Assembly (NCBI RefSeq): GCF_022288725.1 | Contig: NZ_JAKNTA010000013.1 | Location: forward strand, 6,580 to 30,579 | Origin: Kitasatospora sp. A2-31 | Lineage (GTDB): Bacteria > Actinomycetota > Actinomycetes > Streptomycetales > Streptomycetaceae | Length of the DNA stretch: 24,000 nucleotides | Direction: 5' to 3' | Made by a program: the position numbers and the translations under genes | The notes under the pieces: model-generated | Told to the model about the DNA's origin: nothing | Seen by the model: only the letters and a program-made list of their open reading frames with translations | The model's database searches: none | Shown: positions 5,411 to 21,087 of the stretch, one piece after another | How the letters are laid out: each line of letters opens with the position of its first letter | How positions within the stretch are numbered: position 1 is the first letter of the stretch

Positions 5411-6079
5411 ATGCGAGCACGACGGATCGCGGCCGCGGCAGCCGGAATCCTGCTGACGGTCGGGCTGACAGCGGCACAGGGGGCCACGGCACAGGGGGCG
5501 CCCGCGCGCGTGACGGCTCCGTGCGAGGGCACCTACACGATCGTGGTCGGGGGCACCGGCAGCTCGTGGAACAACGACGGGTTCACCGGCAACATCCAGC
5601 AGCACGTCGGGTATCCCACCCAGATCCCCAACGGTGCCAGCACGCGGGCCGGCGTCAACGAGCTGAACCGGCTGGTCCGCGACCAGCGCGCCGCGTGCCC
5701 GGGCCAGCACGTCAAGATGGCCGGGTACTCGCTGGGAGCCGGTGTGGTGCACGTCTGGGTCACCGAGAACTGGCAGACCTTCGACAACGTCAACGCCATC
5801 CTCGTCTCGGACCCCAAGCGCCAGGGCCCGCCCGGGGCCAACGGCGGGGCCGTGCCGTTCGGCGGCATCATCGGAGCTCCGCTCGCGGGTGCCGACAGGT
5901 TCTTCGGCAACGTGCCCGTCAAGACGATCTGCCACTGGGACTACGTCTGCGACGAGTCCGCCGGGATCTGGACCTACCCGTACAACCACGTCCACAACTA
6001 CCCCGAAGACTTCAACATGGATCACCACAACGACAGCGCCAACGAGGTCTGGTACAACGGCGCCTGGTACCCCGCGTAG
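5411..6079 (+). CDS. secreted cutinase-family (cutinase/PE-PPE-like) serine hydrolase
   Basis: ATG 5411 follows GGGGAGGA. The N-terminal signal peptide is 'MRARRIAAAAAGILLTVGLTAAQGATAQG'. Cutinase-like order of blocks: 'CEGTYTIVVGGTGSS', 'ACPGQHVKMAGYSLGAGVV' (GYSxGA nucleophile elbow), 'AILVSDPKR', 'KTICHWDYVCDES'. Confidence 0.75.
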   Translation: MRARRIAAAAAGILLTVGLTAAQGATAQGAPARVTAPCEGTYTIVVGGTGSSWNNDGFTGNIQQHVGYPTQIPNGASTRAGVNELNRLVRDQRAACPGQHVKMAGYSLGAGVVHVWVTENWQTFDNVNAILVSDPKRQGPPGANGGAVPFGGIIGAPLAGADRFFGNVPVKTICHWDYVCDESAGIWTYPYNHVHNYPEDFNMDHHNDSANEVWYNGAWYPA

Positions 6080-6230: not shown

Positions 6231-6261
6231 TCATCGGGATGTCATCGACCCTTCCTAGCCT
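6231..6261 (+). promoter_or_regulatory. SARP-box-like element: TCATCGG(6231-6237)-N4-TCATCGA(6242-6248)-N7-TAGCCT (-10-like)
   Basis: Same architecture and spacing as 5306-5336. TAGCCT fits the Streptomyces TAnnnT -10 and lies 48 nt upstream of the acylase ATG. It sits downstream of the strong terminator at 6121-6168, so this is an independent transcription unit. Confidence 0.5.
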
Positions 6262-6308
6262 GGCCGTGTTCAGCCAAACGACCGGACCGCAGGGGGAAGG
6301 ACGACTCG

Positions 6309-8810: not shown

Positions 8811-8854
8811 TGCTCCCGTTCCGCACGACGACGACACCGACGAGGGGAAACACC

Positions 8855-9937
8855 GTGACGAGGACATCGAGCCGGTGGCGCAGGGTGGTGGCCCTGGTGG
8901 CCGCCGTCCTGGCGACGGCCACCACGGCGGGTGCCGCACGTGCCGCCGCCGGCACGGGGGCGCCGCCGCCGATGGCGAACGGGTTCGGCCTGACCCAGGT
9001 CGAACCCGCCGTGGGCGGTCCGACCGACTTCTACCTGACCGTGACCACTCCCGAGGTCACCGGCCGGCACCACATCAAGATCATCCTGCCGAGCGGGTAC
9101 TACGACGACCCGACCAGGCGCTACCCCGTGCTGTACTTCCTGCACGGCTCACCCGACGACCCCGTCCAGCAGAACTATCCGGCGCTGACCATGTCCCACT
9201 CGATGATCACCGTCATCCCGGACGGCGGCGCCCGGGGCTGGTACGCCAACTGGCTCGACCAGAACACCCGGCTGGGAGCCCAGAACTGGGAGAACTTCCA
9301 CCTCCAGCAGGTGATCCCGTTCATCGACGCCAACCTGCGGACCGTCGCCGCCAAGAAGGCCAGGGCCGTCGCGGGCGTCTCCATGGGCGGCTTCGGCGCC
9401 CTCCACTACGCCCAGGACCACCCGGAACTGTTCGGCCAGACCGCGTCCCTGTCGGGCGACATCGATCTGTCGGCCGACTCCATGGACCTGAGGCTGGCCG
9501 TCGTCGCCTCCCTCATCGACGCCCAGGGCGCGCTCTGCGGCTCGTCCTCCGGATTCTGCGGCGACCCCGCGAACGACCCGTACAAGCCCGGCGTGGACAG
9601 CGACGCCCTGTTCGGCTCGCCCTACCCGGTGTTCAACGTGGACTGGCGTTGGAACGCGGCCGACCCGTCCCAGCACATGGACAGGCTCGCCGGGGTCGGG
9701 GTCTCCATCTACGTGGGCAACGGACGCGGCGTGCCCACCGACCTGGAGTTCTGGCTCGAAGGCGCGTCCAAGCACGTCAAGGACCGCATGGACGCCCTGG
9801 GCATGTCCTACCACTACGTCGACTACGGCGACGGCTCCGGCTGGGGCACCCAGTGCAACGGCGGCCACAACGCCGGCTGCTGGGAACAGGACCTCCGGGA
9901 CCTGATCCCCCGGCTCGAACGGGCCTTCGCCTCCTGA
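8855..9937 (+). CDS. secreted esterase (esterase D / antigen-85 mycolyltransferase-like alpha/beta hydrolase)
   Basis: GTG 8855 follows GAGGGGA. An alternative ATG at 8810 overlaps the acylase stop (TGATG). Signal peptide 'RWRRVVALVAAVLATATTAGAARAAAG'. Motifs: 'YPVLYFLHGS', 'VIPDGGARGWYANW', and 'AVAGVSMGGFGALHYA' (GxSxG). Probably co-transcribed with the acylase. Confidence 0.8.
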   Translation: MTRTSSRWRRVVALVAAVLATATTAGAARAAAGTGAPPPMANGFGLTQVEPAVGGPTDFYLTVTTPEVTGRHHIKIILPSGYYDDPTRRYPVLYFLHGSPDDPVQQNYPALTMSHSMITVIPDGGARGWYANWLDQNTRLGAQNWENFHLQQVIPFIDANLRTVAAKKARAVAGVSMGGFGALHYAQDHPELFGQTASLSGDIDLSADSMDLRLAVVASLIDAQGALCGSSSGFCGDPANDPYKPGVDSDALFGSPYPVFNVDWRWNAADPSQHMDRLAGVGVSIYVGNGRGVPTDLEFWLEGASKHVKDRMDALGMSYHYVDYGDGSGWGTQCNGGHNAGCWEQDLRDLIPRLERAFAS

Positions 9938-9960: not shown

Positions 9961-10008
9961 GGTCGGCCCAGGCCTCACCGCGCGGCCGCGGTGAGGCCGG
10001 GGCCGACC
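9961..10008. terminator. bidirectional hairpin between the convergent esterase (+) and LuxR-SARP (-) genes
   Basis: ggcctcaccgcg (9971-9982) pairs with cgcggtgaggcc (9987-9998) around a 4-nt loop. The stem is extended by ggtcggccc (9961-9969) pairing with gggccgacc (10000-10008). This gives about 21 bp with one mismatch and overlaps the last codons of the minus-strand gene. Confidence 0.55.
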
Positions 10009-11048
10009 TCGTCCCCGCTCAGGATCAGCCGGTGCGTCTGCCGCAGCAGCCGGCTCGGCGCAACCCCCAGGTCGTCGGCCAGCCGGCGGCGGGTGCGGTC
10101 GAACACGGCCAGGGCGTCGGCCTGTCGGCCGCTGCGGTACAGCGCGCGCATCAGCATCGCGGCCACCGGCTCGTTGAGGGGGTGCTCCGCGGCCAGGGCG
10201 AACAGCTCGGCCGCCGCCTCGCAGCACTGGCCCAGACCCAGCTGCCACTCCAACTTCCGCTGGGCGACGGCGATCCTGCGCTCGGCGAGCCGCAGCCGCT
10301 CCAACTCTGCCAGCGGGCCGGGCAGTCCGGCCAGGAGCTCGCCGCGGAACAGGTCCAGCGCCCGCGTGCAGAGGCGGACCGCCTCGGTCGGGTCGCCCGC
10401 CCGGTGGGCCGCCCCGGCGTCGGTGACCAGGCGCTCCATGCGCGCCAGGTCCACCTCGACCGCACCGGGCACCAGCCGGTATCCGCACCGGTCGTGCTCG
10501 ATCACCGAGTCCGGGCCGTCCCCGATGCGCAGGGTCTTGCGGAGGCGGTAGATGTGGACCGGTACCACGTTCGTGACCGGCTGATCCGAGCCCCAGACGC
10601 CGTCCAGCAGTTCCTGCTGGCTGACGGTCCGCCCCGCGTGCAGCGCCAGTGCCGCCAGCACGGCTTGCTGGCGCAGGTGTCCCAGCTCCAGGGACCGCCC
10701 GCCCCATCGGGCCCGCAGCGGGCCGAGTACGGAGATCTGCACCTTCGGTCCTGCCGTCGGGCGGACGGCGCTGCAAGGAAGCGACCCCGCTGCCGCCCGC
10801 GTGCGGGGGCCGCGGCCCGGGGCGACCACTCCGCAGTCGAAGGCGTGGACGATGGCGGCGGCCCGGTCGCGCAGCCCGAGCTTCCCGAGGATCCGCGCGA
10901 CGTGCCCGGCCACGGCCTCCTCGGAGATGGCGAGGACGGCGGCGATCTCGTCGTCCCGCAGGCCGCAGCCGACCGCGTGGAGCACGTCGCGCTCCCGGGG
11001 CCCGAGCACGACGGCGCTCGGCCGGCTGGTGGTGGCGTTCGTCGGCAT
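9975..11048 (-). CDS. hybrid transcriptional regulator: N-terminal LuxR/GerE-type HTH + SARP (OmpR-type winged helix + BTAD)
   Basis: ATG 11048 is preceded by AGGGAG. Residues ~15-75, 'LGPRERDVLHAVGCGLRDDEIAAVLAISEEAVAGHVARILGKLGLRDRAAAIVHAFDCGVV', form a GerE HTH. 'VQISVLGPLRARWGGRSLELGHLRQQAVLAALALHAGRTVSQQELLDGVWG...IYRLRKTL...GYRL' is the SARP wHTH. 'VDLARMERL...ALDLFRGELLAGLP...LMRALYRSGRQADALAVFDRTRRRLADDLGVAPS' is the BTAD. Confidence 0.8.
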   Translation of the reverse strand: MPTNATTSRPSAVVLGPRERDVLHAVGCGLRDDEIAAVLAISEEAVAGHVARILGKLGLRDRAAAIVHAFDCGVVAPGRGPRTRAAAGSLPCSAVRPTAGPKVQISVLGPLRARWGGRSLELGHLRQQAVLAALALHAGRTVSQQELLDGVWGSDQPVTNVVPVHIYRLRKTLRIGDGPDSVIEHDRCGYRLVPGAVEVDLARMERLVTDAGAAHRAGDPTEAVRLCTRALDLFRGELLAGLPGPLAELERLRLAERRIAVAQRKLEWQLGLGQCCEAAAELFALAAEHPLNEPVAAMLMRALYRSGRQADALAVFDRTRRRLADDLGVAPSRLLRQTHRLILSGDEVGPGLTAAAR

Positions 11049-11116
11049 CGCTGCTCCCTGGACTCCGGGCCGGCCGGTCCGGCGGACGCCGTCGACGGTA
11101 GTGACGGGGCCCCGGG

Positions 11117-11139
11117 CCCGGAATCCGGAACGATCCGGA
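11117..11139 (-). promoter_or_regulatory. clustered TCCGGA palindromes (minus strand: TCCGGAT-cgt-TCCGGAT-TCCGGG) upstream of the LuxR-SARP gene
   Basis: atccgga occurs at 11123-11129 and 11133-11139 (10-bp period), with a third tccggg-type copy adjacent. The cluster lies 70-90 nt upstream of the ATG at 11048. Function is unknown. Confidence 0.2.
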
Positions 11140-11172
11140 GGAGCACGCGCGGCCGGCCCTGCGTGCACCCGA

Positions 11173-11254
11173 TCAGGAGCAGCGGCAGACCCCTGCGGCC
11201 ACCCGGTGAGGACCGCCGGCAGACCCCTGCGGCCACCCGGTCAGGAGCAGCGGC
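11173..11254. repeat. about 2.4 copies of a 34-bp tandem repeat spanning the kinase stop codon and the kinase/SARP intergenic region
   Basis: Unit 1, 11173-11206: tcaggagcagcggcagacccctgcggccacccgg. Unit 2, 11207-11240: tgaggaccgccggcagacccctgcggccacccgg. Partial unit 3, 11241-11254: tcaggagcagcggc, which is the stop plus last codons (..GRCS*) of the kinase. Confidence 0.9.
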
Positions 11255-12602
11255 CCAGGGTGGGGTGGTCCTTGGTGCGGACGGCGGGGAGCCAGGCGGT
11301 GGTGGGGCCGGGGAGGTGGACGCGGTACCAGAGGGTGGAGGTGCGGTCCTCCTCGTCGATGACGGGGAGGCCGGTGGGGAGCTGGCAGTCGGCGTCGAGG
11401 AGGTCGCCGTGCCAGACACGGGTGGGAACGACGTTCCCGGCGGTGTAGGCGCGCAGGGGATCGACGGCGAGGCCGAGGCTGCACCGGGGGTCGCGGTCGG
11501 TGCGGTCCTGACAGCTGCGTTCGGCGTTGAAGACCCGGATGCGGGTGGGGTGTTCCGCCGGACCGGAGTGCGGCCAGAGCACGGTGGCGGCGACCGCGGC
11601 CGTGGCACAGGCGGCGAGGGCGAGCAGGGCGGTGCGCGGTCGTGGGCGACCACGACGGCGGCCGGACCGGTGCGCGCGGATCCGGGTGAGCAGGCTCTCG
11701 GCGGTGTGCGGGGCCCGCGCGGCGTGGGTGGGGGCGAGGCAGTCGGCGGCGAGGGCGCGCCAGAACGGTGGGACTTCGGGGGCCAGGCGCAGGGCGGCGC
11801 GGCCCTGGGCGTACTGCTGGGCGGCGGCGCTGCGGGCGGTGGGGGTGGCGCCGGGGAAGGGCGGGACACCGGCGGCGAACACCTCGTGGATCACGATGCC
11901 GAGCGCCCAGATGTCGGCGGTGGGGCGGATCTTGACGCCGTGTTCGCCGAGCGGCTCCCCCCAGCGCTCCGGCGGGAGGTAGTCGGGGGTGCCCATGGGG
12001 GCGGCGTGGCCGTGGGTGCCGGTGAGTTCGATGGCGAGGCCGAAGTCGGAGAGGCGGACCTCGCCGTCCTCGCCGATGAGGACGTTCTCGGGCTTGAGGT
12101 CGGTGTGGACCCAGCCGGAGCGGTGCAGGTGGGCCAGGCCCTCGCAGATGCCGGCGACGATCCGGCCGCCCCGGGCCTCGTCGACGCCGGTGGCGAGCAG
12201 GTCGCGCAGGGTGCCCCGGGCCCGTTCCATCACCAGCACGATCGCGCCGTCGAGCGCGGGGTGGTCGGGACAGTCCAGGACGAGGGTGTCGAGCAGGCGG
12301 ACCAGCCGGGGGTGCGGGGCGGTGCGGCCCAACTCGGCTTCGCGGCGAGCGGCTTCGGCGACCTGGCGGGCCTGGCGAGGGGCGAGTCCGGCGATCGGCA
12401 GCACCTTGAGCGCCACCGTGCCGTCCACGCCGGCCGTGCTGTCCGAGCCGTCGCAACGAGTGGGGTCGTCCGCCCGGCGGGCGGCGTAGACGGTGGCCCA
12501 TCCGCCCTCGCCGATGGGCTCGGTGACGATCCAGTCGCCGATCCGGTGACCGGCGGGCAGCAGTTCCTGGCCGGACCCGCGGAAGGCCGGGGCGTGCACC
12601 AT
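11241..12602 (-). CDS. single-pass transmembrane Hanks-type Ser/Thr protein kinase (non-RD: HTD catalytic loop) with Cys4 extracellular domain
   Basis: Kinase motifs: 'IGEGGWATVY' (G-loop), 'VALKVL' (beta3 Lys), 'HTDLKPENVL', 'LSDFGLA', 'GTPDYLPPE'. An Arg-rich stop-transfer segment 'RSGRRRGRPRPR' is followed by the TM helix 'TALLALAACATAAVAATVLW'. The C-terminal domain is about 110 aa and has 4 Cys. Confidence 0.85.
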   Translation of the reverse strand: MVHAPAFRGSGQELLPAGHRIGDWIVTEPIGEGGWATVYAARRADDPTRCDGSDSTAGVDGTVALKVLPIAGLAPRQARQVAEAARREAELGRTAPHPRLVRLLDTLVLDCPDHPALDGAIVLVMERARGTLRDLLATGVDEARGGRIVAGICEGLAHLHRSGWVHTDLKPENVLIGEDGEVRLSDFGLAIELTGTHGHAAPMGTPDYLPPERWGEPLGEHGVKIRPTADIWALGIVIHEVFAAGVPPFPGATPTARSAAAQQYAQGRAALRLAPEVPPFWRALAADCLAPTHAARAPHTAESLLTRIRAHRSGRRRGRPRPRTALLALAACATAAVAATVLWPHSGPAEHPTRIRVFNAERSCQDRTDRDPRCSLGLAVDPLRAYTAGNVVPTRVWHGDLLDADCQLPTGLPVIDEEDRTSTLWYRVHLPGPTTAWLPAVRTKDHPTLGRCS

Positions 12603-12608
12603 CGGGCC

Positions 12609-13376
12609 CTACCTTCGGGGCTCGGCGGCTTCGGGGCGCGGCAGGAGCGCCAGGTGCTCCTCACGAACGATGCCGAACTTCAGGGCGAGGCCCACGACGG
12701 CCTCGCGCTTCCCGCTGCGGCGGTCCGCGCGGCCCGCGTCGTCGGGCAGGTCGATGCGGAGCTTCTCGTCGGCGAGGTAGTCGAGGTGCGAGCTGACCGC
12801 GCGGGCGGTGAGCCGGGCGCAGGCGGGGTGGTCGCGCAGCCGCGCGACCACCTGGAGAGTGGTGGGTACGGCGGCGGGGGAGCGGTCACGCAGCCACGGC
12901 TCGCAGAGCGCGACCAGGACCAGGAAGTAGGTGGCGGTCTCGTCCAGCGAGTACGCCGTCATGGTACGACTCTCCCAGGAGCCGCCACCGCGGGCGTCCG
13001 GATCCAGGTAGACGTGGTCGGGCGCGAACACCTGGAAGGACAAAGGCGTTTCACGTCGTGAGGGCAGCACCACCCGGGAGAACTCGAACGGGATCGGCGC
13101 GCCGATGCGCCGCGGCGGCACCCGCAGGTACTCGCCGGCGCCCTCCGGGTTCTCCACCAGATAGGCGTGGGTGCTGCTGAGGTTGCTCAACTGCCAGTGG
13201 TCGTCGGTCGCGTGGATCTCGCCGGCGAGGCGGGACACCGTCTCGTCGCCGAGTCGGAGCTCCACCGGCGTGCCGGCGGAGCCGCGGCCGAAGCGCGCCC
13301 GCTCACCCGGACCGAGCCGCAAGGTCACCGCGTCCTGGCCGTTCCCCTCCGGCAGGTGGACGAGAATCCCGCTCAC
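12609..13376 (-). CDS. FHA-like domain protein (partly degenerate pThr-binding motif) with uncharacterised C-terminal helical domain
   Basis: GTG 13376 follows GGAGGA. 'RFGRGSAGTPVELRLGDETVSRLAGEIHATDDHWQLSNLSSTHAYLVEN' follows the FHA pattern GR...SR.H...S.NG..vN, with His->Ala and Asn->His substitutions. The stop is 6 nt before the kinase ATG, so the two form an operon. Confidence 0.55.
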   Translation of the reverse strand: MSGILVHLPEGNGQDAVTLRLGPGERARFGRGSAGTPVELRLGDETVSRLAGEIHATDDHWQLSNLSSTHAYLVENPEGAGEYLRVPPRRIGAPIPFEFSRVVLPSRRETPLSFQVFAPDHVYLDPDARGGGSWESRTMTAYSLDETATYFLVLVALCEPWLRDRSPAAVPTTLQVVARLRDHPACARLTARAVSSHLDYLADEKLRIDLPDDAGRADRRSGKREAVVGLALKFGIVREEHLALLPRPEAAEPRR

Positions 13377-13592: not shown

Positions 13593-13618
13593 GAGCGGGA
13601 GCACGCGGGCTCCCGCTC
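13593..13618 (-). terminator. hairpin downstream of the M23-lectin gene
   Basis: gagcgggagc (13593-13602) is the perfect reverse complement of gctcccgctc (13609-13618), with a 6-nt loop. It lies about 70 nt after the stop at 13686. Confidence 0.4.
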
Positions 13619-13685: not shown

Positions 13686-15230
13686 TCAGGGGACGGCGGG
13701 TCCGGCGGTGGTGTGGAGCCAGGTCCAGTCGGACCAGGTGGAGAAGCCGGTCTGCCACTTGTGGTGGACGCCGGCGTTGCTGGTGCCGAACACTTCGATC
13801 CGGCCGTCGGCGTTGGCGGTGGCGGTGATCTCGGTGCCGGCGCCGCCGAAGGTGTCCCACGGGCCGTAGGGTGCGTTGACGCCGGTCTGCCAGGTGTGTT
13901 GGGCGGTGGTGGTGTTGATGGCGAACACTTCGATGCGGCCGTCCGCGGTGGGCTGGCTGGTGAGTTGGGAGTCGGCGGGTCCGCCGGTGGGTTGCCAGTC
14001 GGACCAGGTGGTGGGGTTGGTCTGGTACTTGTGGAAGACGCCGGCGGGTCCGGAGGCGAAGACTTCGAGGCGGCCGTCCTGGTTGTGGTCGACGGTGAGG
14101 TCGTGGCCGCCGCCGCCGAAGGTCTCCCAGGTGGACCAGGTGCCGTTGGCGGTGGTCTGCCATTGGTGTTGGAAGGTGGTGGTGTTGAGGGCGAAGACTT
14201 CGAGTCGGCCGTCGGGGGCTTTGCCGAGTGAGATGCGGCTGTCGGCGGGTCCGCCGGCGGGTTGCCAGTCGGACCAGCCGCTGTTGGGGGCGCTCTGGTA
14301 CTTGTGGAAGACGCCGGCGGGTCCGGAGGCGAAGACTTCGAGGCGGCCGTCCTGGTTGGAGCCGGTGGCGAGGGAGTGGCCGCCGCCGCCGAAGGTCTCC
14401 CAGGTGGACCAGGCGCCGGAGGGCTGGAGCTGGTAGCGGTGTTGGAGGGTGGTGCCGTTGAGGGCGAACATCTCCAGGCGGCCGTCGGGGTTCGGGCCGA
14501 TCGCCAGCTCGGCACCGCCCGGGCCGCCCAGGGACTCCCAGTCCGACCAGGCACCGCTCACCGCGGTCTGCCAGGCGTGCGAGACGCCGTCGGCACCCGC
14601 GGCGAACACCTCCAGCCGGCCGTCCGCCGAACGCGCCGACACCACCCTCCCCGACTGCGCCGGATACACCGGCGGGGTGGGGCGGGGGCCGGTTCCCGGA
14701 GTGCAGGGCATGGTGATCCCGCGCTCCGCCAGGTAGGGGATCGGGTCGGTGCGCACGGTCGCGTCCGAGTCGGCCCAGACCCGTAGGTGCAGGTGCGGGC
14801 CGCTGGAGGTGCCCTCGCTGCCCATCAGTGCGATCAGCTGACCTGCCGTCACGTGGTCGCCGGCGGCCACGTCCCGCTCGCGCATGTGCCCGTACTCGGT
14901 GATGGTCCCGTCCGGGTGCAGGATGCGGATCCACTGGCCGTAGCCCTGCGCCGGGCCGGAGACCAGCACCTGGCCGTCGCCGACCGCGTAGATCGGGGTG
15001 CCGTAGTCGTTGGCGATGTCGATGCCGTTGTGCTCGGGGGTGTAACCCTGGGAGATGTAGCCGGCGGCCGGGCAGGACGCGGTGAATCCGGCGGCCGCAG
15101 CAGGGGTGGCCGACGCGGGCGCGGCCGGCACGGTGACGGGCAGCAGCAGGGCGACCGCGGCGAGGGCCAGGCGCGCGGCGCGGGAGTACGTTCGACGGCC
15201 GAAGGAGGGGAGCACCGGCGCGCCCCTCAT
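13686..15230 (-). CDS. secreted M23 (LytM-type) metallopeptidase fused to a seven-bladed PLL-type lectin beta-propeller
   Basis: ATG 15230. Signal peptide 'MRGAPVLPSFGRRTYSRAARLALAAVALLLPVTVPAAPASA'. M23 motifs 'HNGIDI' (HxxxD) and 'GPHLHLRV' (HxH). Seven repeats follow of 'DGR[LI]E[VM]F....H.[WY]Q.....WS.W...GG', as in Photorhabdus PLL-family fucose/O-methyl-sugar lectins. Confidence 0.85.
   Translation of the reverse strand: MRGAPVLPSFGRRTYSRAARLALAAVALLLPVTVPAAPASATPAAAAGFTASCPAAGYISQGYTPEHNGIDIANDYGTPIYAVGDGQVLVSGPAQGYGQWIRILHPDGTITEYGHMRERDVAAGDHVTAGQLIALMGSEGTSSGPHLHLRVWADSDATVRTDPIPYLAERGITMPCTPGTGPRPTPPVYPAQSGRVVSARSADGRLEVFAAGADGVSHAWQTAVSGAWSDWESLGGPGGAELAIGPNPDGRLEMFALNGTTLQHRYQLQPSGAWSTWETFGGGGHSLATGSNQDGRLEVFASGPAGVFHKYQSAPNSGWSDWQPAGGPADSRISLGKAPDGRLEVFALNTTTFQHQWQTTANGTWSTWETFGGGGHDLTVDHNQDGRLEVFASGPAGVFHKYQTNPTTWSDWQPTGGPADSQLTSQPTADGRIEVFAINTTTAQHTWQTGVNAPYGPWDTFGGAGTEITATANADGRIEVFGTSNAGVHHKWQTGFSTWSDWTWLHTTAGPAVP
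13971..14413 (-). repeat. intragenic tandem duplication, 270-273-bp period (two propeller blades)
   Basis: 14021-14084 is identical to 14294-14357 (64/64 nt). 13971-14007 vs 14241-14277 and 14103-14140 vs 14376-14413 are near-identical. One 3-bp indel lies between the blocks. Confidence 0.9.
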
Positions 15231-15355
15231 GCCGCGCGCAGACGGCCGACGGTGCCGCCGGCCGCCGCCGGGTCGGCGGCGCCCGGTGCCGGGGCGGTGC
15301 CGAGCCCGCCGGGGGGCCCGGGGACGTTCCTGCGGGTGCGGTGGTGCGCGGTCAA
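15227..15355 (-). CDS. candidate 42-codon leader ORF (TTG start) translationally coupled to the M23-lectin gene
   Basis: A perfect AGGAGG (15366-15361) lies 5 nt before TTG (15355-15353). The stop TGA (15229-15227) overlaps the M23 ATG (15230-15228) as ATGA. The M23 ATG has no SD of its own. Third-position GC is very high within the ORF but drops upstream of the TTG in the same frame. The peptide is 'LTAHHRTRRNVPGPPGGLGTAPAPGAADPAAAGGTVGRLRAA', with no recognisable family. Confidence 0.3.
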   Translation of the reverse strand: MTAHHRTRRNVPGPPGGLGTAPAPGAADPAAAGGTVGRLRAA

Positions 15356-15799
15356 CGTGACCTCCTGAGGGCGCGTGACGGCCATCTGTCCGGACCGCCG
15401 GGAGTGGAGCGGTTGGGACGTTAGCCACGCACCGCGCGGCGCAGAACCCGGAACCATCCGGACTGACGGGCGCGGGACCGGCCGAGGAGACTGTCGGGCG
15501 GACCGTCTGTCCTGCGGGCGGGGGGTGTGCCGGACAGCGACCGTCATGGGTCGTCAGCAGGAGTCGAGGAGGGGCCGACCGAGCGCGACGAGCCGCGGAC
15601 GGGGACGGAGAGCACCGCGGCCCGGCCGAGACGGCCGCACACCGGCCGGATCGGGGCAAGCCGCTACGCGGCGTCGCCGGGCTACCCGGCAGGTCGTCCT
15701 GCCGAGGGGCCTGTTGAGTGCCCGTCCGGCGCGGCGGGTGGTCGCCGAGGCCGCCGGGTGAGGCGCCGCTGCCGGCCGCTCGGAGGGCGGACGGCAACC

Positions 15800-15820
15800 G
15801 CCTCGCCGGTGGAGCGAGGC
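15800..15820 (-). terminator. short hairpin abutting the MFS stop codon
   Basis: gcctcgc (15800-15806) pairs with gcgaggc (15814-15820) around a 7-nt loop. The stem is only 7 bp. Confidence 0.3.
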
Positions 15821-17395
15821 TCAGACCTGTCCCTCGCGGCCGGTCGGCAGGGGCTGCTGCTCCTCGGTGGCGGCCTCGGACTGCACGCCGGCACGGAGGC
15901 CGACGATCGCCACCACCGCGGCCACGGCCATGATGACCGCCATCCAGTAGAAGACCGTCTGGGTGGCGTGGGCGAAGTCGACCCGGAAGAACTGCGGGAT
16001 GTCCGCGGTGCCCCCGCTCCCTCCGCTCTGCGCCTGGACCTGGGAGAGGTGGGCGGCCGTGGAGGACGCCTGGGCGGGCGGCAGGCCCTGGGCCACCAGG
16101 GAGTCGGTCAGCCGGGAGCGCAGGTCGGTGACCAGGACGGTGCCCAGCACGGCCAGTCCCAGGCTCGCGGCGTAGTTGCGGACCGTCTGGGTGATGCCGG
16201 TCGCCTCGCCGTAGGAGAGCCGCGAGGCACGGTTGACGGCGTCCGTGCTGGCGGGCGAGAGCATGAAACCCATGCCGGCGCCGGCCAGCACGACGTCCCA
16301 CTGCTGCTCGCTGAAGCTCAGCGTAGTCACGTCGCCCGCCCACAGGTAGAAGCCGACCGCGGCCAGCACGCACCCGAGCACCACCGGTCGCTTCGCGCCG
16401 CCCCGGTCGAGCATCCGGCCGCCGATCTGCGAGGCGATCACGAACCCGATGAAGAAGTAGAGCAGGAAGACGCCGGCCTCCGAGGAGGAGTCACCCAGCG
16501 CGATCTGCGCGTACTCGCTGGAGAAGAAGAACACGGGGACGAAGACCAGCATCGAGATGCCGAGCACGAGGTTCTGCACGAAGAACGCGCGGATGCGGAA
16601 GATGTCCACCTGGATCAGCGGCGAGGCGGTGCGTCTCTCGACGACCGCGAAGACGACCAGCAGCGCGGCACCGGCCGCGATGCAGAGCCCGATCGCCGGG
16701 TTCGACCAGCCCCAGACCTGCGACTGCTGGAACCCGAAGACGCTCAGTCCGACACCGCCGGCGATCAGGGCCAGGCCCCGGTAGTCCATGGGCGCCGGAC
16801 GGATCTCCGTCACCGGCTTGGAGACCGCGACCAGCACCAGCGCGACGGCGGCCACCGGCAGGTTCACCCAGAAGATCGCCCGCCAGGTCCATTCGGTCAG
16901 GTAGCCGCCGAGGACCGGGCCGATCGCGGTCAGACCGCCCGCGATGCCGAAGAACAGGGCCAGCGCCCGCCCCCGCTCGCGCAGCGCGAAGCTCTGCACC
17001 ACGATGGCGAGGGCTGCCGGGAACATGATCGCGCCGCCGAAGCCCTGGACGGCACGGAAGGCGATCAGCCATCCCTCGGCCAGGCTCCCGGTGGGGGTGA
17101 GGCCGCAACAGGCCGAGGCACCCGCGAACACCACCACCCCGAGGACCACCATCTTGCGGTGACCGACGGTGTCGGCGAGCCGGCCGCCGAACGCGAAGAA
17201 CGCGGCCAGGGTGAGCAGGTAGGCGTTGACCGCCCACTGCACCCCCGTGCTGGTCAGCTCCAGCTCGTGCTGGATGTTCGGTACGGCGATCGACACGATG
17301 GTCTGGTCGATGAAGGTCATCGCAACGGCGAAGATCATCGCCGTCAGCACCAGGTAACGCGAGGATCCGCCGACGGTAGCAGTCTGCATCGTCAT
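15821..17395 (-). CDS. MFS transporter, DHA2 (EmrB/QacA-like, 14-TMS) family
   Basis: ATG 17395 ('MTMQTATVGGSSRYLVLTAMIFAVAMTFIDQTIVSIAVPNIQHEL'). 'GGRLADTVGHRKMVVLG' is the MFS motif A-like loop. The protein is 524 aa and hydrophobic throughout. The ORF-track upstream extension is Arg/Pro-rich. Confidence 0.85.
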   Translation of the reverse strand: MTMQTATVGGSSRYLVLTAMIFAVAMTFIDQTIVSIAVPNIQHELELTSTGVQWAVNAYLLTLAAFFAFGGRLADTVGHRKMVVLGVVVFAGASACCGLTPTGSLAEGWLIAFRAVQGFGGAIMFPAALAIVVQSFALRERGRALALFFGIAGGLTAIGPVLGGYLTEWTWRAIFWVNLPVAAVALVLVAVSKPVTEIRPAPMDYRGLALIAGGVGLSVFGFQQSQVWGWSNPAIGLCIAAGAALLVVFAVVERRTASPLIQVDIFRIRAFFVQNLVLGISMLVFVPVFFFSSEYAQIALGDSSSEAGVFLLYFFIGFVIASQIGGRMLDRGGAKRPVVLGCVLAAVGFYLWAGDVTTLSFSEQQWDVVLAGAGMGFMLSPASTDAVNRASRLSYGEATGITQTVRNYAASLGLAVLGTVLVTDLRSRLTDSLVAQGLPPAQASSTAAHLSQVQAQSGGSGGTADIPQFFRVDFAHATQTVFYWMAVIMAVAAVVAIVGLRAGVQSEAATEEQQPLPTGREGQV

Positions 17396-17757
17396 CCGTT
17401 CGGGGATGCGTCCGCGCGTCACTGCCGGCGGACCACCTGGGGGACGGGCCCGTCGTGGAGCAAGGGGCCCGGATCCCTGCCGTTGGCTCGGCGGCTCCCA
17501 TGCTAGCGACCGGTCCGCGGCGCACGGCGGAGCCGCGCCCGGAGCCCCCGGCCGCCCTACTTCCCGCCGCGGCTGCTCGCGGCGGCCGCATGCGCCTGAC
17601 GCGCGCCCCGCACCCGGTCCGGCGCAGCGACGCCACGCGTTCGGCACGGAATCTCCGTGCGGGCGGGACGGTTGATGTTCGGAGAGACGATCCGACGGTT
17701 CCGGCACCGATGTGCCGGACCGGCGTCCGGACGAGCCCGCATCGTGAGGTGTGTCCC

Positions 17758-18117
17758 ATGGCTGAAAGCCCTATCCGGGGGATCGATCCCGCGGCCCGGC
17801 CGAGCGGGGACGGGTGTGTGGAGTGCCTGGCAGGGGACGGACCGGGGTGGTGGTTCCACCTGCGGCGCTGCGCCGCGTGCGGGCACATCGGGTGCTGCGA
17901 CTCCTCGCCGTCCCAGCACGGCACACGGCATGCCCGGGAGGCAGGGCATCCGTTCCTGGCCAGCTTCGAGCCCGGTGAGGCGTGGCTGTGGAACATCGAG
18001 ACCGAGCAGTACTACGAGGGGCCGGAGCTGGCGGCGCCCGTGGCGCACCCGGCCTCGCAGCCGACGCCCGGCCCGCAGGGCAGGGTCCCCGCGGACTGGC
18101 AGTCGCACCTGCACTGA
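17758..18117 (+). CDS. UBP-type zinc-finger domain protein
   Basis: ATG 17758 follows GTGAGGTG. 'CVECLAGDGPGWWFHLRRCAACGHIGCCDSSPSQHGTRHAREAGHPFLASFEPGEAWLWNIETEQYY' matches the Cys/His spacing of ZnF-UBP domains. Confidence 0.8.
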   Translation: MAESPIRGIDPAARPSGDGCVECLAGDGPGWWFHLRRCAACGHIGCCDSSPSQHGTRHAREAGHPFLASFEPGEAWLWNIETEQYYEGPELAAPVAHPASQPTPGPQGRVPADWQSHLH

Positions 18118-18122
18118 GGAGC

Positions 18123-19067
18123 TCAGAGCGGTGGGACCGGCAGGCGCGGGTCCGTGATGCCGCCCGGGCAGGCGAGAGCGCCGACGTCCCAGCCGGAACG
18201 GAGGGCTCCGGCCCGGTACGCGCTCTCGTAGAAGGCGAGTGCGGCCGCTCGCGGATCGGTCTCGCTGCGGGCCGCGTCGTAGCCCAGGACCGCCAGCGGG
18301 CTGCCGTTGAGCTCGGTCCACCGCGCGGAGGCGGGTGTCAGCGGGCACTCGGCCAGCCGCTCGGGAGCGGGGGTGGTGTAGGAGTAGAAGGCCGGCTCGC
18401 CCAGCTCGGCGTCCCCGAACCAGAACCCGAAGCTGATCAGCTCCCTGGAGTACGCCTCGCGGGTCACCGGGTCCGTCTGCGGCGGCTGGTCGAGGGCGTG
18501 GTCGGAGAAGCGGGTGTGGGCGAGGTCGAACGAGTGCCAGAAGAGGTGGACGGGGCTGACCTTGCCCGAGAAGCGCGCCGCGAACTCCTCCAGCACCAGC
18601 CCGACCTGGCTGAGCACCTGCCAGTGGCGAGTCGCCCAGGCGGGATCGTAGCCGGCGTGCTCGACGTCCTCCGCGAACGGCCGGTCCGTGTCGGCCAGTC
18701 GGTAGGGCCGGGGCACCCGGATCGACACCCGGACGCCCAGTGAGTCCAGCGTCTCCAGGGTCTGCCGGTAGAACGAGGCGACGGACTGGCCGAGGAGCGG
18801 GAAGGACCCCTCCCTGCCGTCCACCGTCGCGACGACCAGCCGGTGGTCGACGAAGTCGAAGTCGATGGTGAAGACCGGGTTGCCGTCGACCAGTCCCATG
18901 GGCCGTGTGGTGATGCCGCGCCCGGTGAGGTGGAACGGGACGTTCCACCAGTGGTTGCGCCGCACGCTCGCCGCGAGGCGGATCTTGCCCACCACCTGGG
19001 AGAAGCGGTGCAGGGTCTCCTTCGTGTCCTGCCACTCGGCGAGTGGCATCGGCGGGAACAGCTCCAT
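18123..19067 (-). CDS. DUF5996-family protein
   Basis: ATG 19067 follows AGGAGGG. 'PPMPLAEWQDTKETLHRFSQVVGKIRLAASVRRNHWWNVPFHLTGRGITTRPM' and 'VHLFWHSFDLAHTRFS' resemble the conserved actinobacterial DUF5996 family (recognised from memory, not searched). Confidence 0.7.
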   Translation of the reverse strand: MELFPPMPLAEWQDTKETLHRFSQVVGKIRLAASVRRNHWWNVPFHLTGRGITTRPMGLVDGNPVFTIDFDFVDHRLVVATVDGREGSFPLLGQSVASFYRQTLETLDSLGVRVSIRVPRPYRLADTDRPFAEDVEHAGYDPAWATRHWQVLSQVGLVLEEFAARFSGKVSPVHLFWHSFDLAHTRFSDHALDQPPQTDPVTREAYSRELISFGFWFGDAELGEPAFYSYTTPAPERLAECPLTPASARWTELNGSPLAVLGYDAARSETDPRAAALAFYESAYRAGALRSGWDVGALACPGGITDPRLPVPPL

Positions 19068-19257
19068 CGCGCATCCCTCCTGCCGGGCGGCCGTGGTTCC
19101 ATGATGGGCGCGACGGTGCGGACGCGCAGACCGGTGGACCTGCTCGGCCCGCCGGGAGGGCGGGGGCGTGGACACCCGGGTGGCTCTCGGCGTCACCAAG
19201 GCGTCTCCCCGGTCCGTCCTGTCAGGGCATGGTCGGACGGACCGGGGAGGGGGCGCC

Positions 19258-19292
19258 GGGCCGGAGCGAGGGGAGGGGGGTCGCTCCGGTCC
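19258..19292 (-). terminator. hairpin after the aminopeptidase gene
   Basis: ccggagcga (19261-19269) pairs with tcgctccgg (19281-19289) around an 11-nt G-rich loop, extendable by 2-3 pairs. It lies 15 nt downstream of the stop at 19307. Confidence 0.5.
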
Positions 19293-19306
19293 GGCGGGCT
19301 CGCGTG

Positions 19307-20923: not shown

Positions 20924-21033
20924 GGTGGTTCCTGTCGAGCGGGATCGGGTGTGACGGTGGTGCGGTGGGGGAGGGGCCCGGCCGCCGACGGCAGGTGGTC
21001 CGGCGGGCTGTCGCGCCGGTCGCCGCCCGCCGG

Positions 21034-21087
21034 GGGTCAGCGCCATGCGGCGGCCGCTCGGGGTCAGCGCCGTGCGGCGGCCGTGTC
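21034..21087. repeat. 2 x 27-bp tandem duplication containing the stop codon and last codons of the 139-aa gene
   Basis: 21034-21060 is gggtcagcgccatgcggcggccgctcg and 21061-21087 is gggtcagcgccgtgcggcggccgtgtc (22/23 identical over the first 23 nt). Both copies carry an in-frame tca (TGA) at 21037 and 21064. Confidence 0.85.

What the first reader, a model, noticed from the sequence alone, without database searches (positions are those of the whole stretch)
13686..15230. Secreted M23 metallopeptidase fused to a seven-bladed PLL-type lectin propeller
Seen: after a signal peptide comes an intact LytM/M23 catalytic core (HNGID ... GPHLHL). A Pro-rich linker ('CTPGTGPRPTPPVYP') follows, and then exactly seven repeats of DGR[LI]E[VM]F-x6-8-H-x-[WY]Q ... 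W[SD]xW...GG. Established: this repeat defines the PLL/PHL family of heptabladed beta-propeller lectins from Photorhabdus, which bind L-fucose and O-methylated sugars. M23 enzymes cut peptidoglycan cross-bridges and usually use SH3b, LysM or PG-binding targeting domains. Inference: the lectin propeller would retarget a lytic endopeptidase to fucosylated or methylated glycans, for example on foreign cell surfaces, glycosylated envelopes or exopolysaccharide. I have not seen this domain combination described.
Basis: partly seen in the sequence, partly recalled or inferred. Interest (0 to 1): 0.7.

Follow-up and report, generated by a model that had tools for sequence, protein, structure and literature searches.

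The report
Wall-cutting peptidase with lectin-type propeller
A Kitasatospora gene encodes a probably secreted enzyme that joins a peptidoglycan-cutting M23 peptidase to a seven-bladed propeller of the Photorhabdus lectin family; the fusion is real and common in streptomycetes, the propeller most likely anchors cell-wall-degrading enzymes to a wall glycan rather than to fucose, and nobody appears to have tested it.

Summary
Window 13686-15230 (minus strand) is one uninterrupted 514-aa ORF: signal peptide, intact M23 core, Pro-rich linker, seven PLL-type blades. Sequence (PHL E=4e-51) and predicted fold (TM 0.81-0.86 to PLL/PHL; M23 52% identical to bacteriolytic StM23) confirm both domains.

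The fusion is not an artefact. About 50 Streptomyces/Kitasatospora genomes carry the same ORF, auto-annotated as "peptidoglycan DD-metalloendopeptidase family protein".

The fucose/O-methyl-sugar inference is not supported. The first of the two tryptophans of the PLL hydrophobic pocket is replaced in all seven blades (W in 4 of 756 blades of actinobacterial homologues). The polar-site residues are retained.

The same propeller is fused to SLT_3, amidase_2, GH25, phage-lysozyme, NlpC/P60-like and GH43-like domains. It is usually encoded in tandem with the M23 gene, and the tandem copies stay 94% identical within a genome against 80% between genomes. I read it as a shared cell-wall-targeting module.

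The window holds a reduced cassette. It lacks the tandem SLT_3-propeller gene of its closest relative, by repeat recombination or assembly collapse. An FHA protein, a membrane Ser/Thr kinase, a SARP/LuxR regulator and a cutinase are conserved neighbours.

No experimental description was found. Verdict: new variant of a known kind, moderate interest.

The parts
13686..15230 (-). Complete CDS (514 aa plus stop) of the M23-PLL propeller protein
   Evidence: ORF and translation. (GC3 0.92 inside, 0.64 upstream). (full-length orthologues, 66-91% identity).
15108..15230 (-). Signal peptide, residues 1-41: charged n-region, LALAAVALLLPV core, ASA cleavage motif. Sec versus Tat is undecided.
   Evidence: Read from the sequence. 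AF2 pLDDT is below 50 for residues 1-46. The orthologue consensus is SRRAL...LAA...AAA. No signal-peptide predictor was available, so this is inferred.
14706..15092 (-). M23 metallopeptidase domain, residues 47-175. Zn ligands and catalytic residues are H67, D71, H115, H146 and H148. Also a conserved Cys53/Cys176 pair.
   Evidence: Pfam PF01551, 1.3e-30. PDB 9GY1 StM23: E = 2.6e-37, 52% identity, TMt 0.85. H67, H115, H146 and H148 are invariant and D71 is present in 37 of 38 orthologues. C53 and C176 are each present in 36 of 38.
14646..14705 (-). Pro-rich interdomain linker, residues 176-195
   Evidence: Sequence CTPGTGPRPTPPVYP. pLDDT is below 50 at residues 180-188.
13689..14645 (-). Seven-bladed PLL-family beta-propeller, residues 196-514. 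Blades start at 203, 249, 294, 340, 385, 430 and 475, and two blade types alternate.
   Evidence: phmmer to PHL/PLL/PLL2-5, E = 4e-51 to 8e-45. Foldseek TMt 0.81-0.86. Seven DNA copies at 135-138 nt spacing and a two-blade unit of 270-273 nt. Blade alignment.
12609..13376 (-). Conserved neighbour: 255-aa protein with an N-terminal FHA fold and a C-terminal helical domain. Its link to the hydrolase is inferred from gene linkage only.
   Evidence: It lies next to the propeller-hydrolase gene(s) in most of the 78 loci and in S. microflavus. The AF2 model matches FHA domains at TMt 0.73-0.75. Weak Pfam hit to Yop-YscD_cpl.
11241..12602 (-). Conserved neighbour: membrane Ser/Thr protein kinase, with kinase domain, a transmembrane segment and a Cys-containing C-terminal extracytoplasmic tail of about 110 aa. 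It starts 6 nt after the FHA gene ends.
   Evidence: Pfam Pkinase, 3.1e-35. Co-located with the FHA gene in the loci. The transmembrane segment and tail were judged by inspection of the translation.
9975..11168 (-). Conserved neighbour: regulator with GerE (LuxR HTH), Trans_reg_C and BTAD (SARP) domains
   Evidence: Pfam. NCBIfam gives an AfsR-like SARP. An orthologue (66% identity) sits in the S. microflavus propeller-hydrolase cluster and in the Kitasatospora loci.
5411..6079 (+). Conserved neighbour: 222-aa cutinase-family esterase
   Evidence: Pfam Cutinase. An 84%-identical orthologue lies directly next to the propeller-hydrolase genes in S. microflavus, and a 92%-identical one in L067.

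Best explanation
The gene encodes an exported, two-module peptidoglycan hydrolase.

Catalytic module: the M23 domain is a zinc endopeptidase that cuts peptide stems or cross-links of peptidoglycan. The family assignment and intact catalytic residues are shown. The activity and the bond cut are inferred.

Targeting module: a flexible Pro-rich linker ties the M23 domain to a seven-bladed PLL-family propeller. I propose the propeller is a multivalent cell-wall-targeting module, playing the role that SH3b, LysM or choline-binding repeats play in other lysins. It would hold the enzyme on a repeating glycan of the bacterial envelope, either the peptidoglycan glycan or a wall-linked polymer.

Binding site: binding is more likely through the retained polar-type inter-blade sites than through the fucose/O-methyl hydrophobic pocket, which is remodelled in every blade.

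Cassette: in streptomycetes this propeller is the common handle of several hydrolases (M23, SLT_3 or another lysozyme-like domain, GH43-like). They are encoded in tandem and kept alike by gene conversion, next to an FHA protein, a membrane Ser/Thr kinase, a SARP/LuxR regulator and a cutinase. The window carries a reduced form with only the M23 member.

Which wall is attacked is not settled. I favour an accessory, regulated lytic toolkit used on other microbes' envelopes (about 0.45) over remodelling of the producer's own wall (about 0.3).
For: M23 domain:
- Pfam 105.9 bits.
- All five Zn/catalytic residues are conserved in orthologues.
- It is 52% identical to StM23 (PDB 9GY1) with TMt 0.85. 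StM23 lyses Gram-positives with meso-DAP peptidoglycan and works better once a wall-targeting domain is attached (PMC12052989).

Propeller fold:
- Confident AF2 model, pLDDT 85.9.
- It matches PLL/PHL structures over their whole length.

Targeting role:
- The same propeller (60-83% identity) sits C-terminal to SLT_3, SLT, Amidase_2, GH25, Phage_lysozyme2 and NlpC/P60-like modules, and to a GH43-like domain.
- In 32 loci the tandem M23 and SLT_3 genes have propeller DNA that is 94.3% identical within a genome (median, range 81-100%). Between genomes it is 79-80%, whichever catalytic partner is compared.
- The propeller is at least as conserved as the catalytic domain (entropy 0.73 against 0.96; median identity 72.7% against 69.8%).

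Binding sites:
- Equivalents of the polar-site residues (R and E of DGRLE, H, W/Y, Q, first W of WSxW) are nearly invariant.
- The most variable positions ring the H-pocket equivalent: the T2 tip, the x of WSxW, and the position two residues after the second Trp.

Accessory, cassette character:
- 7 of 8 complete chromosomes carry it within 1.35 Mb of a chromosome end.
- The cutinase, SARP/LuxR, FHA and kinase neighbours are conserved between Kitasatospora and S. microflavus despite rearrangement.
Against: - There are no binding or activity data for any member.
- The retained 'polar-site' residues are also the signature of the repeat itself, so their conservation may be purely structural.
- Propeller relatives are also fused to phospholipase C + PLAT, matrixin and PIG-L deacetylase. 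The module is therefore not intrinsically wall-specific.
- No phage lysin in 50,697 phage records carries it. A dedicated binder of streptomycete walls might have been expected there.
- Blades 3 and 5 keep Phe at the Trp position, so a modified hydrophobic pocket for 6-deoxy or methylated sugars is not excluded.
- Linkage to the FHA/kinase pair could be positional. That pair is much more widespread (1331 homologues) than the M23 fusion.
- Secretion is inferred by eye only.
Confidence: 0.65

Rival explanations
1. One reading: the propeller is a fucose/O-methyl-sugar lectin like PLL/PHL. It would redirect the peptidase to fucosylated or methylated glycans on foreign, possibly eukaryotic or mycobacterial, surfaces or on exopolysaccharide.
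For: - Clear homology and shared fold with PLL/PHL.
- The second H-site Trp is kept in all blades (756 of 756 across the family).
- Phe replaces the first Trp in blades 3 and 5.
- PHL and PLL2 bind an O-methylated Mycobacterium leprae disaccharide.
- The cassette contains a cutinase, esterases and a GH43-like enzyme. These could act on a mycolyl-arabinogalactan-type envelope; this is my speculation.
Against: - The first H-site Trp, which stacks on C4-C6 of fucose, is absent from all 7 blades. It is present in only 0.5% of blades in the actinobacterial clade.
- The T2 turn that supplies the Ser/Thr hydrogen bond is one residue shorter.
- Nearly all fusion partners in the clade are peptidoglycan hydrolases, which points to a bacterial wall ligand.
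Confidence: 0.1
2. Self-directed autolysin: the enzyme remodels the producer's own wall (hyphal branching, septation, spore maturation or germination). The propeller would bind the producer's own wall glycopolymer, and the FHA/kinase pair would couple hydrolase activity to growth signalling.
For: - There is tight, widely conserved linkage to an FHA protein and a membrane Ser/Thr kinase. From general knowledge, such pairs commonly control wall synthesis in actinobacteria.
- Homogenisation of the propellers within a genome fits recognition of a lineage-specific self polymer. The analogy, from general knowledge, is pneumococcal choline-binding hydrolases.
Against: - The gene shows patchy, chromosome-arm distribution.
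- The cassette is easily reduced or recombined: the window, L033, L034 and L067.
- A GH43-like glycosidase and a cutinase belong to the conserved cluster, and neither has an obvious role in peptidoglycan remodelling.
- No actinophage lysin uses the module.
Confidence: 0.3
3. The propeller is not a carbohydrate binder here. It would be a protein-interaction or auto-inhibitory domain that occludes or regulates the M23 active site, as accessory domains do in LytM or ShyA.
For: - Beta-propellers are frequent protein-binding platforms (general knowledge).
- The canonical H site is lost.
- The AF2 pTM of 0.68 leaves the inter-domain arrangement open.
Against: - One and the same propeller accompanies at least seven unrelated catalytic folds. 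That is hard to reconcile with specific occlusion of each active site.
- The linker is long, Pro-rich and predicted to be disordered.
Confidence: 0.07
4. Artefact: the fusion, or the present form of the locus, results from mis-assembly of repeats.
For: - Relative to K. hibisci, the window lacks exactly one 'propeller + SLT_3 catalytic' unit. Its propeller aligns to both tandem copies.
- The tandem copies are 97.8% identical there.
- Several draft assemblies break or carry N-runs inside this gene: L062-L064, L066, L069, L072-L075.
Against: - The M23-propeller fusion itself is present as an uninterrupted ORF in about 50 loci, including complete chromosomes.
- The single-gene arrangement followed directly by the FHA gene also occurs in the complete genomes L033 and L034.
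- The window ORF has seven in-register blades of the standard 313-aa length.
Confidence: 0.05

Closest known systems
PLL-family heptabladed lectins of Photorhabdus: PLL, PLL2-5, PHL (PropLec7A, Pfam PF26607 / DUF346)
   Same: - Seven W-motif blades with the DGRLEVF...H-x-W-Q...W-S-x-W...GG signature.
- 35-37% identity.
- Predicted fold superposes over the whole lectin, TMt 0.81-0.86.
- Polar-site residues are retained.
   Different: - The first Trp of the fucose/O-methyl hydrophobic site is replaced in all seven blades, and the T2 turn is one residue shorter.
- Two blade types alternate.
- It is not a free-standing lectin but the C-terminal module of an enzyme with a signal peptide.
- It lacks the inter-subunit Cys of PHL/PLL.
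Modular M23 bacteriolysins and autolysins: lysostaphin, ALE-1, LytM, zoocin A, EnpA
   Same: - Exported M23 endopeptidase joined by a linker to a C-terminal non-catalytic targeting domain.
- HxxxD and HxH motifs and the extra catalytic His are present.
   Different: - The targeting domain is a 320-aa lectin-type propeller instead of SH3b, a target-recognition domain or LysM.
- Substrate chemotype is unknown.
- No immunity gene was recognised nearby.
StM23 (PDB 9GY1), a bacteriolytic M23 catalytic domain (PMC12052989)
   Same: It is the closest solved catalytic domain: 52% identity, E = 2.6e-37, TMt 0.85. It is active from outside on Gram-positives with meso-DAP peptidoglycan.
   Different: The native StM23 protein has no propeller. 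Its activity was improved by artificially adding an SH3b domain, whereas here a natural targeting module is present.
Pneumococcal choline-binding hydrolases LytA/LytB/LytC (analogy from general knowledge, not tested here)
   Same: One wall-binding repeat module is shared by several hydrolases with different bond specificities in one genome.
   Different: - The fold is unrelated (choline-binding repeats, not a propeller).
- The ligand here is unknown.
- Here the modules are tandemly encoded and homogenised by gene conversion.

Membership tests
Peptidase family M23 (LytM/lysostaphin type) | Profile match above the curated threshold | tested here: met
   PF01551 scores 105.9 bits against a cut-off of 28.7, residues 66-156.
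Peptidase family M23 (LytM/lysostaphin type) | Zn ligands HxxxD and the second His of HxH, plus the two catalytic His | tested here: met
   H67-x3-D71, H115 and H146-L-H148 align to lysostaphin and StM23. They are conserved in 37-38 of 38 orthologues.
Peptidase family M23 (LytM/lysostaphin type) | M23 fold | tested here: met
   The AF2 domain has pLDDT of about 90. Foldseek to 9GY1 gives TMt 0.85 and rmsd 2.3 Å.
Peptidase family M23 (LytM/lysostaphin type) | Peptidoglycan endopeptidase activity and the bond cleaved | not testable with these tools
   This needs zymography and muropeptide LC-MS.
PLL-family beta-propeller lectins (PropLec7A) | Seven W-motif blades with the family sequence signature and significant sequence homology | tested here: met
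   Seven repeats. phmmer E = 4e-51 to PHL. Orthologues carry a precomputed PF26607 hit.
PLL-family beta-propeller lectins (PropLec7A) | Seven-bladed propeller fold | tested here: met
   Foldseek TMt 0.81-0.86 to 6T96, 8Q7U, 5MXE and 6RFZ.
PLL-family beta-propeller lectins (PropLec7A) | Hydrophobic (H) site with two conserved Trp that bind L-fucose and O-methylated sugars | tested here: not met
   The first Trp is S/Q/F/Q/F/Q/H in the seven blades. The second Trp is kept in 7 of 7. Across the clade the first position is W in 4 of 756 blades.
PLL-family beta-propeller lectins (PropLec7A) | Polar (P) site residues: R and E of DGRLE, H, the Trp of HxWQ, Q, and the first Trp of WSxW | tested here: inconclusive
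   The residues are present in 6-7 of 7 blades (W/Y at the stacking position) and nearly invariant in orthologues. They also define the repeat, so their presence does not prove a functional site.
PLL-family beta-propeller lectins (PropLec7A) | Demonstrated carbohydrate binding | not testable with these tools
   This needs glycan arrays, ITC and cell-wall pull-downs.
Modular cell-wall hydrolase (catalytic domain + wall-targeting domain) | Export signal, catalytic module and separate non-catalytic module joined by a linker | tested here: met
   Architecture. The signal peptide was judged by inspection only.
Modular cell-wall hydrolase (catalytic domain + wall-targeting domain) | The non-catalytic module recurs with other wall-hydrolase catalytic domains (module shuffling) | tested here: met
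   Partners are SLT_3, SLT, Amidase_2, GH25, Phage_lysozyme2 and NlpC/P60-like.
Modular cell-wall hydrolase (catalytic domain + wall-targeting domain) | The module binds cell walls | not testable with these tools
   This needs binding assays with purified sacculi, with and without secondary wall polymers.

The most novel reading that the evidence does not exclude
Streptomycetes possess a previously undescribed, regulated 'envelope-demolition' cassette. Several enzymes with different bond specificities (M23 endopeptidase, lysozyme-like SLT_3, GH43-like glycosidase, with a cutinase alongside) would share one lectin-type propeller. Gene conversion keeps that propeller near-identical within a genome, and it would set which prey envelope (or which wall polymer) is attacked. 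An adjacent FHA / Ser-Thr-kinase / SARP module would switch the cassette on. The PLL propeller would then be a new class of bacterial cell-wall-targeting domain whose specificity has been re-tooled away from fucose.
Probability: 0.3. Interest if true: 0.7.

Novelty: new variant of a known kind. Interest (0 to 1): 0.5.

Why it matters
Wall-targeting domains decide the host range and potency of lytic enzymes, and they are the parts that are swapped when enzybiotics are engineered. The known repertoire is small: SH3b, LysM, choline-binding repeats and phage cell-wall-binding domains.

A multivalent seven-site lectin propeller that actinomycetes reuse on at least seven hydrolase types would add a new targeting scaffold. 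It would also extend the PLL lectin family from insect-pathogen virulence factors to bacterial cell-wall biology.

The within-genome homogenisation of the propeller offers a natural experiment on how targeting specificity co-evolves across an enzyme set. The conserved FHA/kinase/SARP neighbours suggest a testable regulatory circuit for deploying lytic enzymes.

If the propeller turns out not to bind walls, this remains an ordinary, already auto-annotated M23 paralogue.

Tried and rejected
- **Frameshift or two-gene artefact: rejected.** The region is a single frame with uniform GC3, and about 50 intact orthologous ORFs exist.
- **Longer ORF starting at 16373: rejected.** GC3 is 0.64 upstream of 15230.
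- **Riboswitch or other known RNA in the 590-nt upstream gap: none found.** Wall-hydrolase genes of Streptomyces are known to carry ydaO-type elements, but no Rfam hit at gathering score appeared anywhere in the window.
- **Sigma-70-type promoter scan: nothing.** This is uninformative for a high-GC actinomycete.
- **Terminator: weak evidence only.** A 10-bp GC hairpin lies at 13593-13618, but the fold z-score is only -1.29.
- **Phage origin or use as an endolysin binding domain: not supported.** tblastn of the propeller against 50,697 phage records gave no match.
- **Plasmid carriage: not supported.** No full-length match was found. Only distant propeller relatives with other partners appeared.
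- **Blade-number variants: mostly not real.** The apparent 3-5-blade variants are N-runs in the stored contigs (L064, L066, L069). L049 (5 blades) and L067 (recombinant with the GH43-gene propeller, in a complete chromosome) look genuine.
- **'Fast-evolving propeller' idea: rejected.** The propeller is slightly more conserved than the M23 domain.
- **NCBIfam:** this gave only sub-threshold M23 equivalog hits and no family for the FHA protein.
- **PLL 2016 paper (PMC5122772):** this is not held, so I could not check what it says about actinobacterial homologues.
- **One literature search was mis-specified and uninformative.**
Full report
**1. The observation**

The window is about 72-76% G+C. 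On the minus strand an ORF ends at 13686. The ATG at 15230 gives a 514-aa protein. The mechanical ORF continues in frame to 16373, but third-position GC falls from 0.92 inside 13686-15230 to 0.64 upstream.

Every listed element is present:
- A signal-like N-terminus (n-region with five Arg, the core LALAAVALLLPV, then ASA). This was judged by inspection only.
- HNGID, a GH motif and GPHLHL.
- The linker CTPGTGPRPTPPVYP.
- Exactly seven DGR[LI]E[VM]F repeats, starting at residues 203, 249, 294, 340, 385, 430 and 475.

At the DNA level the repeats appear as seven copies 135-138 nt apart. There is a superimposed two-blade period of 270-273 nt.

**2. Domain identities**

The M23 domain:
- Pfam places Peptidase_M23 at residues 66-156, at 105.9 bits against a cut-off of 28.7.
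- NCBIfam gives only sub-threshold hits to named M23 equivalogs.
- The closest solved catalytic domain is 9GY1, StM23, at E = 2.6e-37 and 52% identity.
- The paper describing StM23 shows that it lyses Listeria and Bacillus (meso-DAP peptidoglycan) from outside. It also shows that adding a wall-targeting domain improves it (PMC12052989).
- H67, D71, H115, H146 and H148 align with the Zn and catalytic residues of lysostaphin. They are conserved in 37-38 of 38 orthologues.

The propeller:
- Residues 200-466 match the Photorhabdus lectins PHL, PLL and PLL2-5 at E = 4e-51 to 8e-45.
- An AlphaFold2 model built on 38 orthologues is confident, with mean pLDDT 85.9. Only residues 1-46 and 180-188 fall below 50.
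- The propeller part of the model superposes on the whole of PLL3, PLL, PHL and PLL2, with TMt 0.81-0.86.

Both assignments are confirmed.

**3. Is the fusion real and how common is it?**

A protein search returned about 46 clusters (at 90% identity) with PF01551 + PF26607 ('PLL-like beta propeller'). They come from Streptomyces, Kitasatospora and Actinocorallia. Most are named 'peptidoglycan DD-metalloendopeptidase family protein'.

In representative genomes, 133 stretches encode a relative. Of the 78 loci kept, about 50 carry an uninterrupted M23 + seven-blade ORF whose propeller part is a constant 313 aa. The best match is Kitasatospora hibisci at 91% identity, so the window comes from a Kitasatospora.

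The fusion is therefore not a frameshift or assembly artefact, and it is already machine-annotated. I found no paper that describes or tests it. LectomeXplore only notes that DUF346 is 'a PLL-like lectin'.

**4. Does the lectin specificity transfer?**

PLL-family lectins have two rings of inter-blade sites.

The hydrophobic (H) site binds L-fucose, and its authors suspect it also binds O-methylated sugars. It uses two conserved Trp that stack on C4-C6, plus a Ser/Thr of turn T2 (PMC12203525; PMC6943638; PMC5584973). I rebuilt PHL numbering from the alignment and checked it against the residues named in the paper. I then aligned all blades.
- The first H-site Trp (PHL W104/151/199/247/295/343) is S, Q, F, Q, F, Q, H in the seven blades here.
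- Turn T2 is one residue shorter.
- The second Trp is kept in all seven blades.
- Across 756 blades of 120 actinobacterial homologues, the first position is W only 4 times (F 222, Q 132, Y 107, H 74 and others). The second Trp is W in 756 of 756.

The polar (P) site residues are retained in 6-7 of 7 blades. These are R and E of DGRLE, H, the stacking W/Y, Q, and the first W of WSxW. They are nearly invariant among orthologues. The most variable blade positions are the T2 tip, the x of WSxW and the position two residues after the second Trp. These ring the H-pocket equivalent.

The fucose/O-methyl inference is therefore not supported. A lectin function through polar-type sites, or through a re-tooled pocket (Phe in blades 3 and 5), remains plausible but unproven. 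One caution applies: the P-site residues also define the repeat itself.

**5. What the comparative data say about function**

The same propeller (60-83% identical) is the C-terminal module of proteins with other N-terminal domains:
- SLT_3 / SLT lysozyme-like domains, Amidase_2, GH25 muramidase and phage-tail lysozyme.
- NlpC/P60-like modules with the motif YRTDCSGFV.
- A Tat-signal GH43-like domain.

In most loci the M23 gene is followed on the same strand by an SLT_3-propeller gene. Often a GH43-like-propeller gene follows that.

In the 32 loci with tandem M23 and SLT_3 genes, the two propeller-coding regions are 94.3% identical within a genome (median, range 81-100%). Between genomes they are 79-80% identical, whichever partner is compared (protein examples 99.7% and 91.9%). 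This is concerted evolution by gene conversion or unequal crossing-over. It implies that the enzymes of a cassette share one targeting specificity.

The propeller is slightly more conserved than the catalytic domain, which argues that it is functionally essential.

More distant propeller relatives are attached to phospholipase C + PLAT in a Eubacteriales MAG and an unassigned metagenome assembly, to a matrixin in Paenibacillus and to a PIG-L deacetylase in Deinococcus. The fold thus serves generally as a handle for envelope-active enzymes.

**6. The window's locus**

Aligned to the complete K. hibisci chromosome:
- Window (minus strand) 15496-13692 matches the upstream region plus the M23-propeller gene at 92.5%.
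- Window 14670-12600 matches the propeller of the SLT_3 gene plus its downstream flank at 93.2%.

The window therefore lacks exactly one 'propeller + SLT_3 catalytic domain' unit, about 1.5 kb. This is the product expected from recombination between the two tandem propellers, which are 97.8% identical in K. hibisci. It is also what assembly collapse of that repeat would produce.

Evidence on the two possibilities:
- Complete genomes L033 and L034 show the same single-gene arrangement.
- L067 carries a natural recombinant between the M23 gene and the propeller of the GH43-like gene. Such rearrangements therefore do occur.
- Several draft assemblies break inside this gene, so collapse cannot be excluded for the window.

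Either way the M23-propeller ORF itself is standard.

**7. Neighbours**

Downstream lie a 255-aa protein and, 6 nt after it, a membrane Ser/Thr kinase. This pair flanks the propeller-hydrolase genes in most loci, in either orientation, while other flanks vary.

The AF2 model of the 255-aa protein has an FHA fold at its N-terminus (TMt 0.73-0.75) and a helical C-terminal domain. Its family is widespread in Streptomyces, with 1331 homologues, and is often mis-named 'serine/threonine protein kinase'.

In S. microflavus the orthologous cluster, in order, holds:
- a SARP/LuxR regulator (66% identical to window 9975-11168)
- a cutinase (84% identical to window 5411-6079)
- a 573-aa protein with a propeller and an unassigned N-terminal domain
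- an M23-propeller protein
- a GH43-like-propeller protein
- the FHA protein (71%)
- the kinase (61%)

The association of regulators, cutinase and propeller hydrolases therefore survives rearrangement across genera. In 7 of 8 complete chromosomes the locus lies within 1.35 Mb of a chromosome end, which fits an accessory function. No Rfam element, including wall-hydrolase-associated riboswitches, is present.

**8. Mechanism and alternatives**

Shown:
- An intact M23 domain close to a proven bacteriolytic enzyme.
- A PLL-fold propeller.
- Modular reuse of that propeller on wall hydrolases.
- Homogenisation of the propeller within genomes.
- A conserved regulatory neighbourhood.

Inferred:
- Export.
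- Peptidoglycan cleavage.
- Glycan binding by the propeller.
- Which wall is attacked.

I favour an exported lytic enzyme whose propeller anchors it multivalently to a wall glycan (core reading about 0.65). Use against other microbes (about 0.45) is somewhat likelier than self-remodelling (about 0.3). The reasons are the arm location, the patchy and plastic cassette, and the non-peptidoglycan enzymes in it. The FHA/kinase linkage and the absence of the module from phage lysins cut in opposite directions.

The other readings are less likely:
- Fucose/O-methyl retargeting, about 0.1.
- A non-lectin regulatory role for the propeller, about 0.07.
- An artefact, at most 0.05, and that applies only to locus structure.

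**9. Comparison and novelty**

The protein works like lysostaphin-type modular lysins (catalytic domain + targeting domain). It is a bona fide M23 member.

Its propeller is a structural and evolutionary member of the PLL family, but it fails the family's defining fucose-site test. It should be called PLL-like, not a fucose lectin.

The architecture is already abundant in databases, so the gene itself is a member of an existing but uncharacterised group. Three points appear to be new:
- The PLL propeller read as a wall-targeting module shared by a cassette of hydrolases.
- Its concerted evolution within genomes.
- Its conserved signalling neighbours.

I rate it a new variant of a known kind, with interest 0.5.

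Noticed in passing
window 11241-13376 (minus strand); loci L001-L071, L079-L081: An FHA-fold protein (255 aa, no Pfam family, often mis-named 'serine/threonine protein kinase') and a membrane Ser/Thr kinase form a 6-nt-spaced pair. The pair flanks propeller-hydrolase genes in most streptomycete loci, in either orientation. The FHA protein is 70-97% identical across genera, more conserved than the hydrolase.
   Followed up: partly
L001 7560-9026; L004 7401-8876 and 8909-10945; 32 loci: The M23-propeller gene is usually followed by an SLT_3-propeller gene, and often by a Tat-signal GH43-like-propeller gene. Propeller DNA of the first two is a median 94% identical within a genome against about 80% between genomes, which indicates concerted evolution. 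The window lacks both extra genes.
   Followed up: yes
window 13692-14670 versus L001 6560-7542 and 8042-9026: The window's propeller aligns to both tandem propellers of K. hibisci, and its 3' flank aligns to the flank of the second gene. The window is therefore either a natural deletion by repeat recombination or an assembly collapse of a repeat of about 940 bp. This cannot be decided from the sequence.
   Followed up: partly
L067 5932-7182 (Kitasatospora sp. NBC_00085, complete chromosome); L049 5956-7257: L067 carries M23 + blade 1 joined to the last blades of the divergent propeller of the GH43-like gene, a natural recombinant. L049 has a five-blade version that has lost one two-blade unit.
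   Followed up: partly
L062, L063, L072-L075; N-runs in L064, L066, L069: Several draft assemblies end or carry N-runs inside this gene, as expected for a near-identical tandem repeat. Apparent 3-4-blade variants in these loci are not real.
   Followed up: yes
window 13689-14645 (residues 196-514): Two blade types alternate. Blades 1, 3, 5 and 7 read 'xGxxGV.H..Q...WSDW'. Blades 2, 4 and 6 read 'LNxTT.QH..Q...WSTWETFGGGG'. A two-blade DNA unit of 270-273 nt is 84% identical between copies. The propeller therefore looks built from a duplicated blade pair plus one.
   Followed up: partly
window residues C53 and C176 (nt about 15072-15074 and 14703-14705): Two Cys bracket the M23 domain. Each is present in 36 of 38 orthologues and each is replaced in two aligned sequences. 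I did not check whether these are the same two sequences. This suggests a disulfide stapling the domain ends, but it was not verified on coordinates.
   Followed up: no
L076 4327-7194 (unassigned metagenome assembly); L078 4540-7347 (Eubacteriales MAG); plasmid hits H2, H4: PLL-like propellers are also fused to zinc phospholipase C + PLAT, to a matrixin metalloprotease (Paenibacillus) and to a PIG-L deacetylase (Deinococcus). The fold is a widely reused handle for envelope-active enzymes.
   Followed up: partly
P0064, P0112 (about 553-573 aa); P0056, P0059, P0070: Many streptomycete proteins named 'peptidase M23' carry the propeller but have no M23 domain. Their N-termini are an unassigned domain of about 240 aa (P0064/P0112) or an NlpC/P60-like module with a 'YRTDCSGFV' motif. 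These names look like mis-annotations.
   Followed up: partly
window 5411-6079 (+), 5742-8810 (+), 8738-9937 (+), 19307-21595 (-): The neighbourhood is rich in hydrolases whose families are typically secreted: a cutinase, a penicillin-amidase-family protein, a PF00756 esterase and a TAP-like alpha/beta hydrolase. The cutinase is 84% identical to the one inside the S. microflavus propeller-hydrolase cluster. A PF00756 esterase paralogue lies just upstream of the M23 gene in many other loci.
   Followed up: partly
window 13593-13618 (minus strand): A 10-bp GC-rich hairpin (GGAGCGGGAGC...GCUCCCGCUC) lies 68 nt after the stop codon and has no T-run. The fold z-score of the region is only -1.29, so it is at best a weak terminator candidate.
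   Followed up: yes
window 15231-15820: A 590-nt gap separates the M23 gene from the upstream MFS transporter gene (15821-17707). About 265 nt of it is conserved with K. hibisci (92.5% over the aligned block). No Rfam family and no sigma-70-like promoter were detected.
   Followed up: partly
window 1-5229 and 17455-23982: The other genes appear unrelated to the finding. They include a cupin, an FAA hydrolase, an arylmalonate-decarboxylase-like protein, a PaaX-like regulator, an amidohydrolase, a zf-UBP protein, a DUF5996 protein, a tandem-Usp protein and an ABC ATPase.
   Followed up: no
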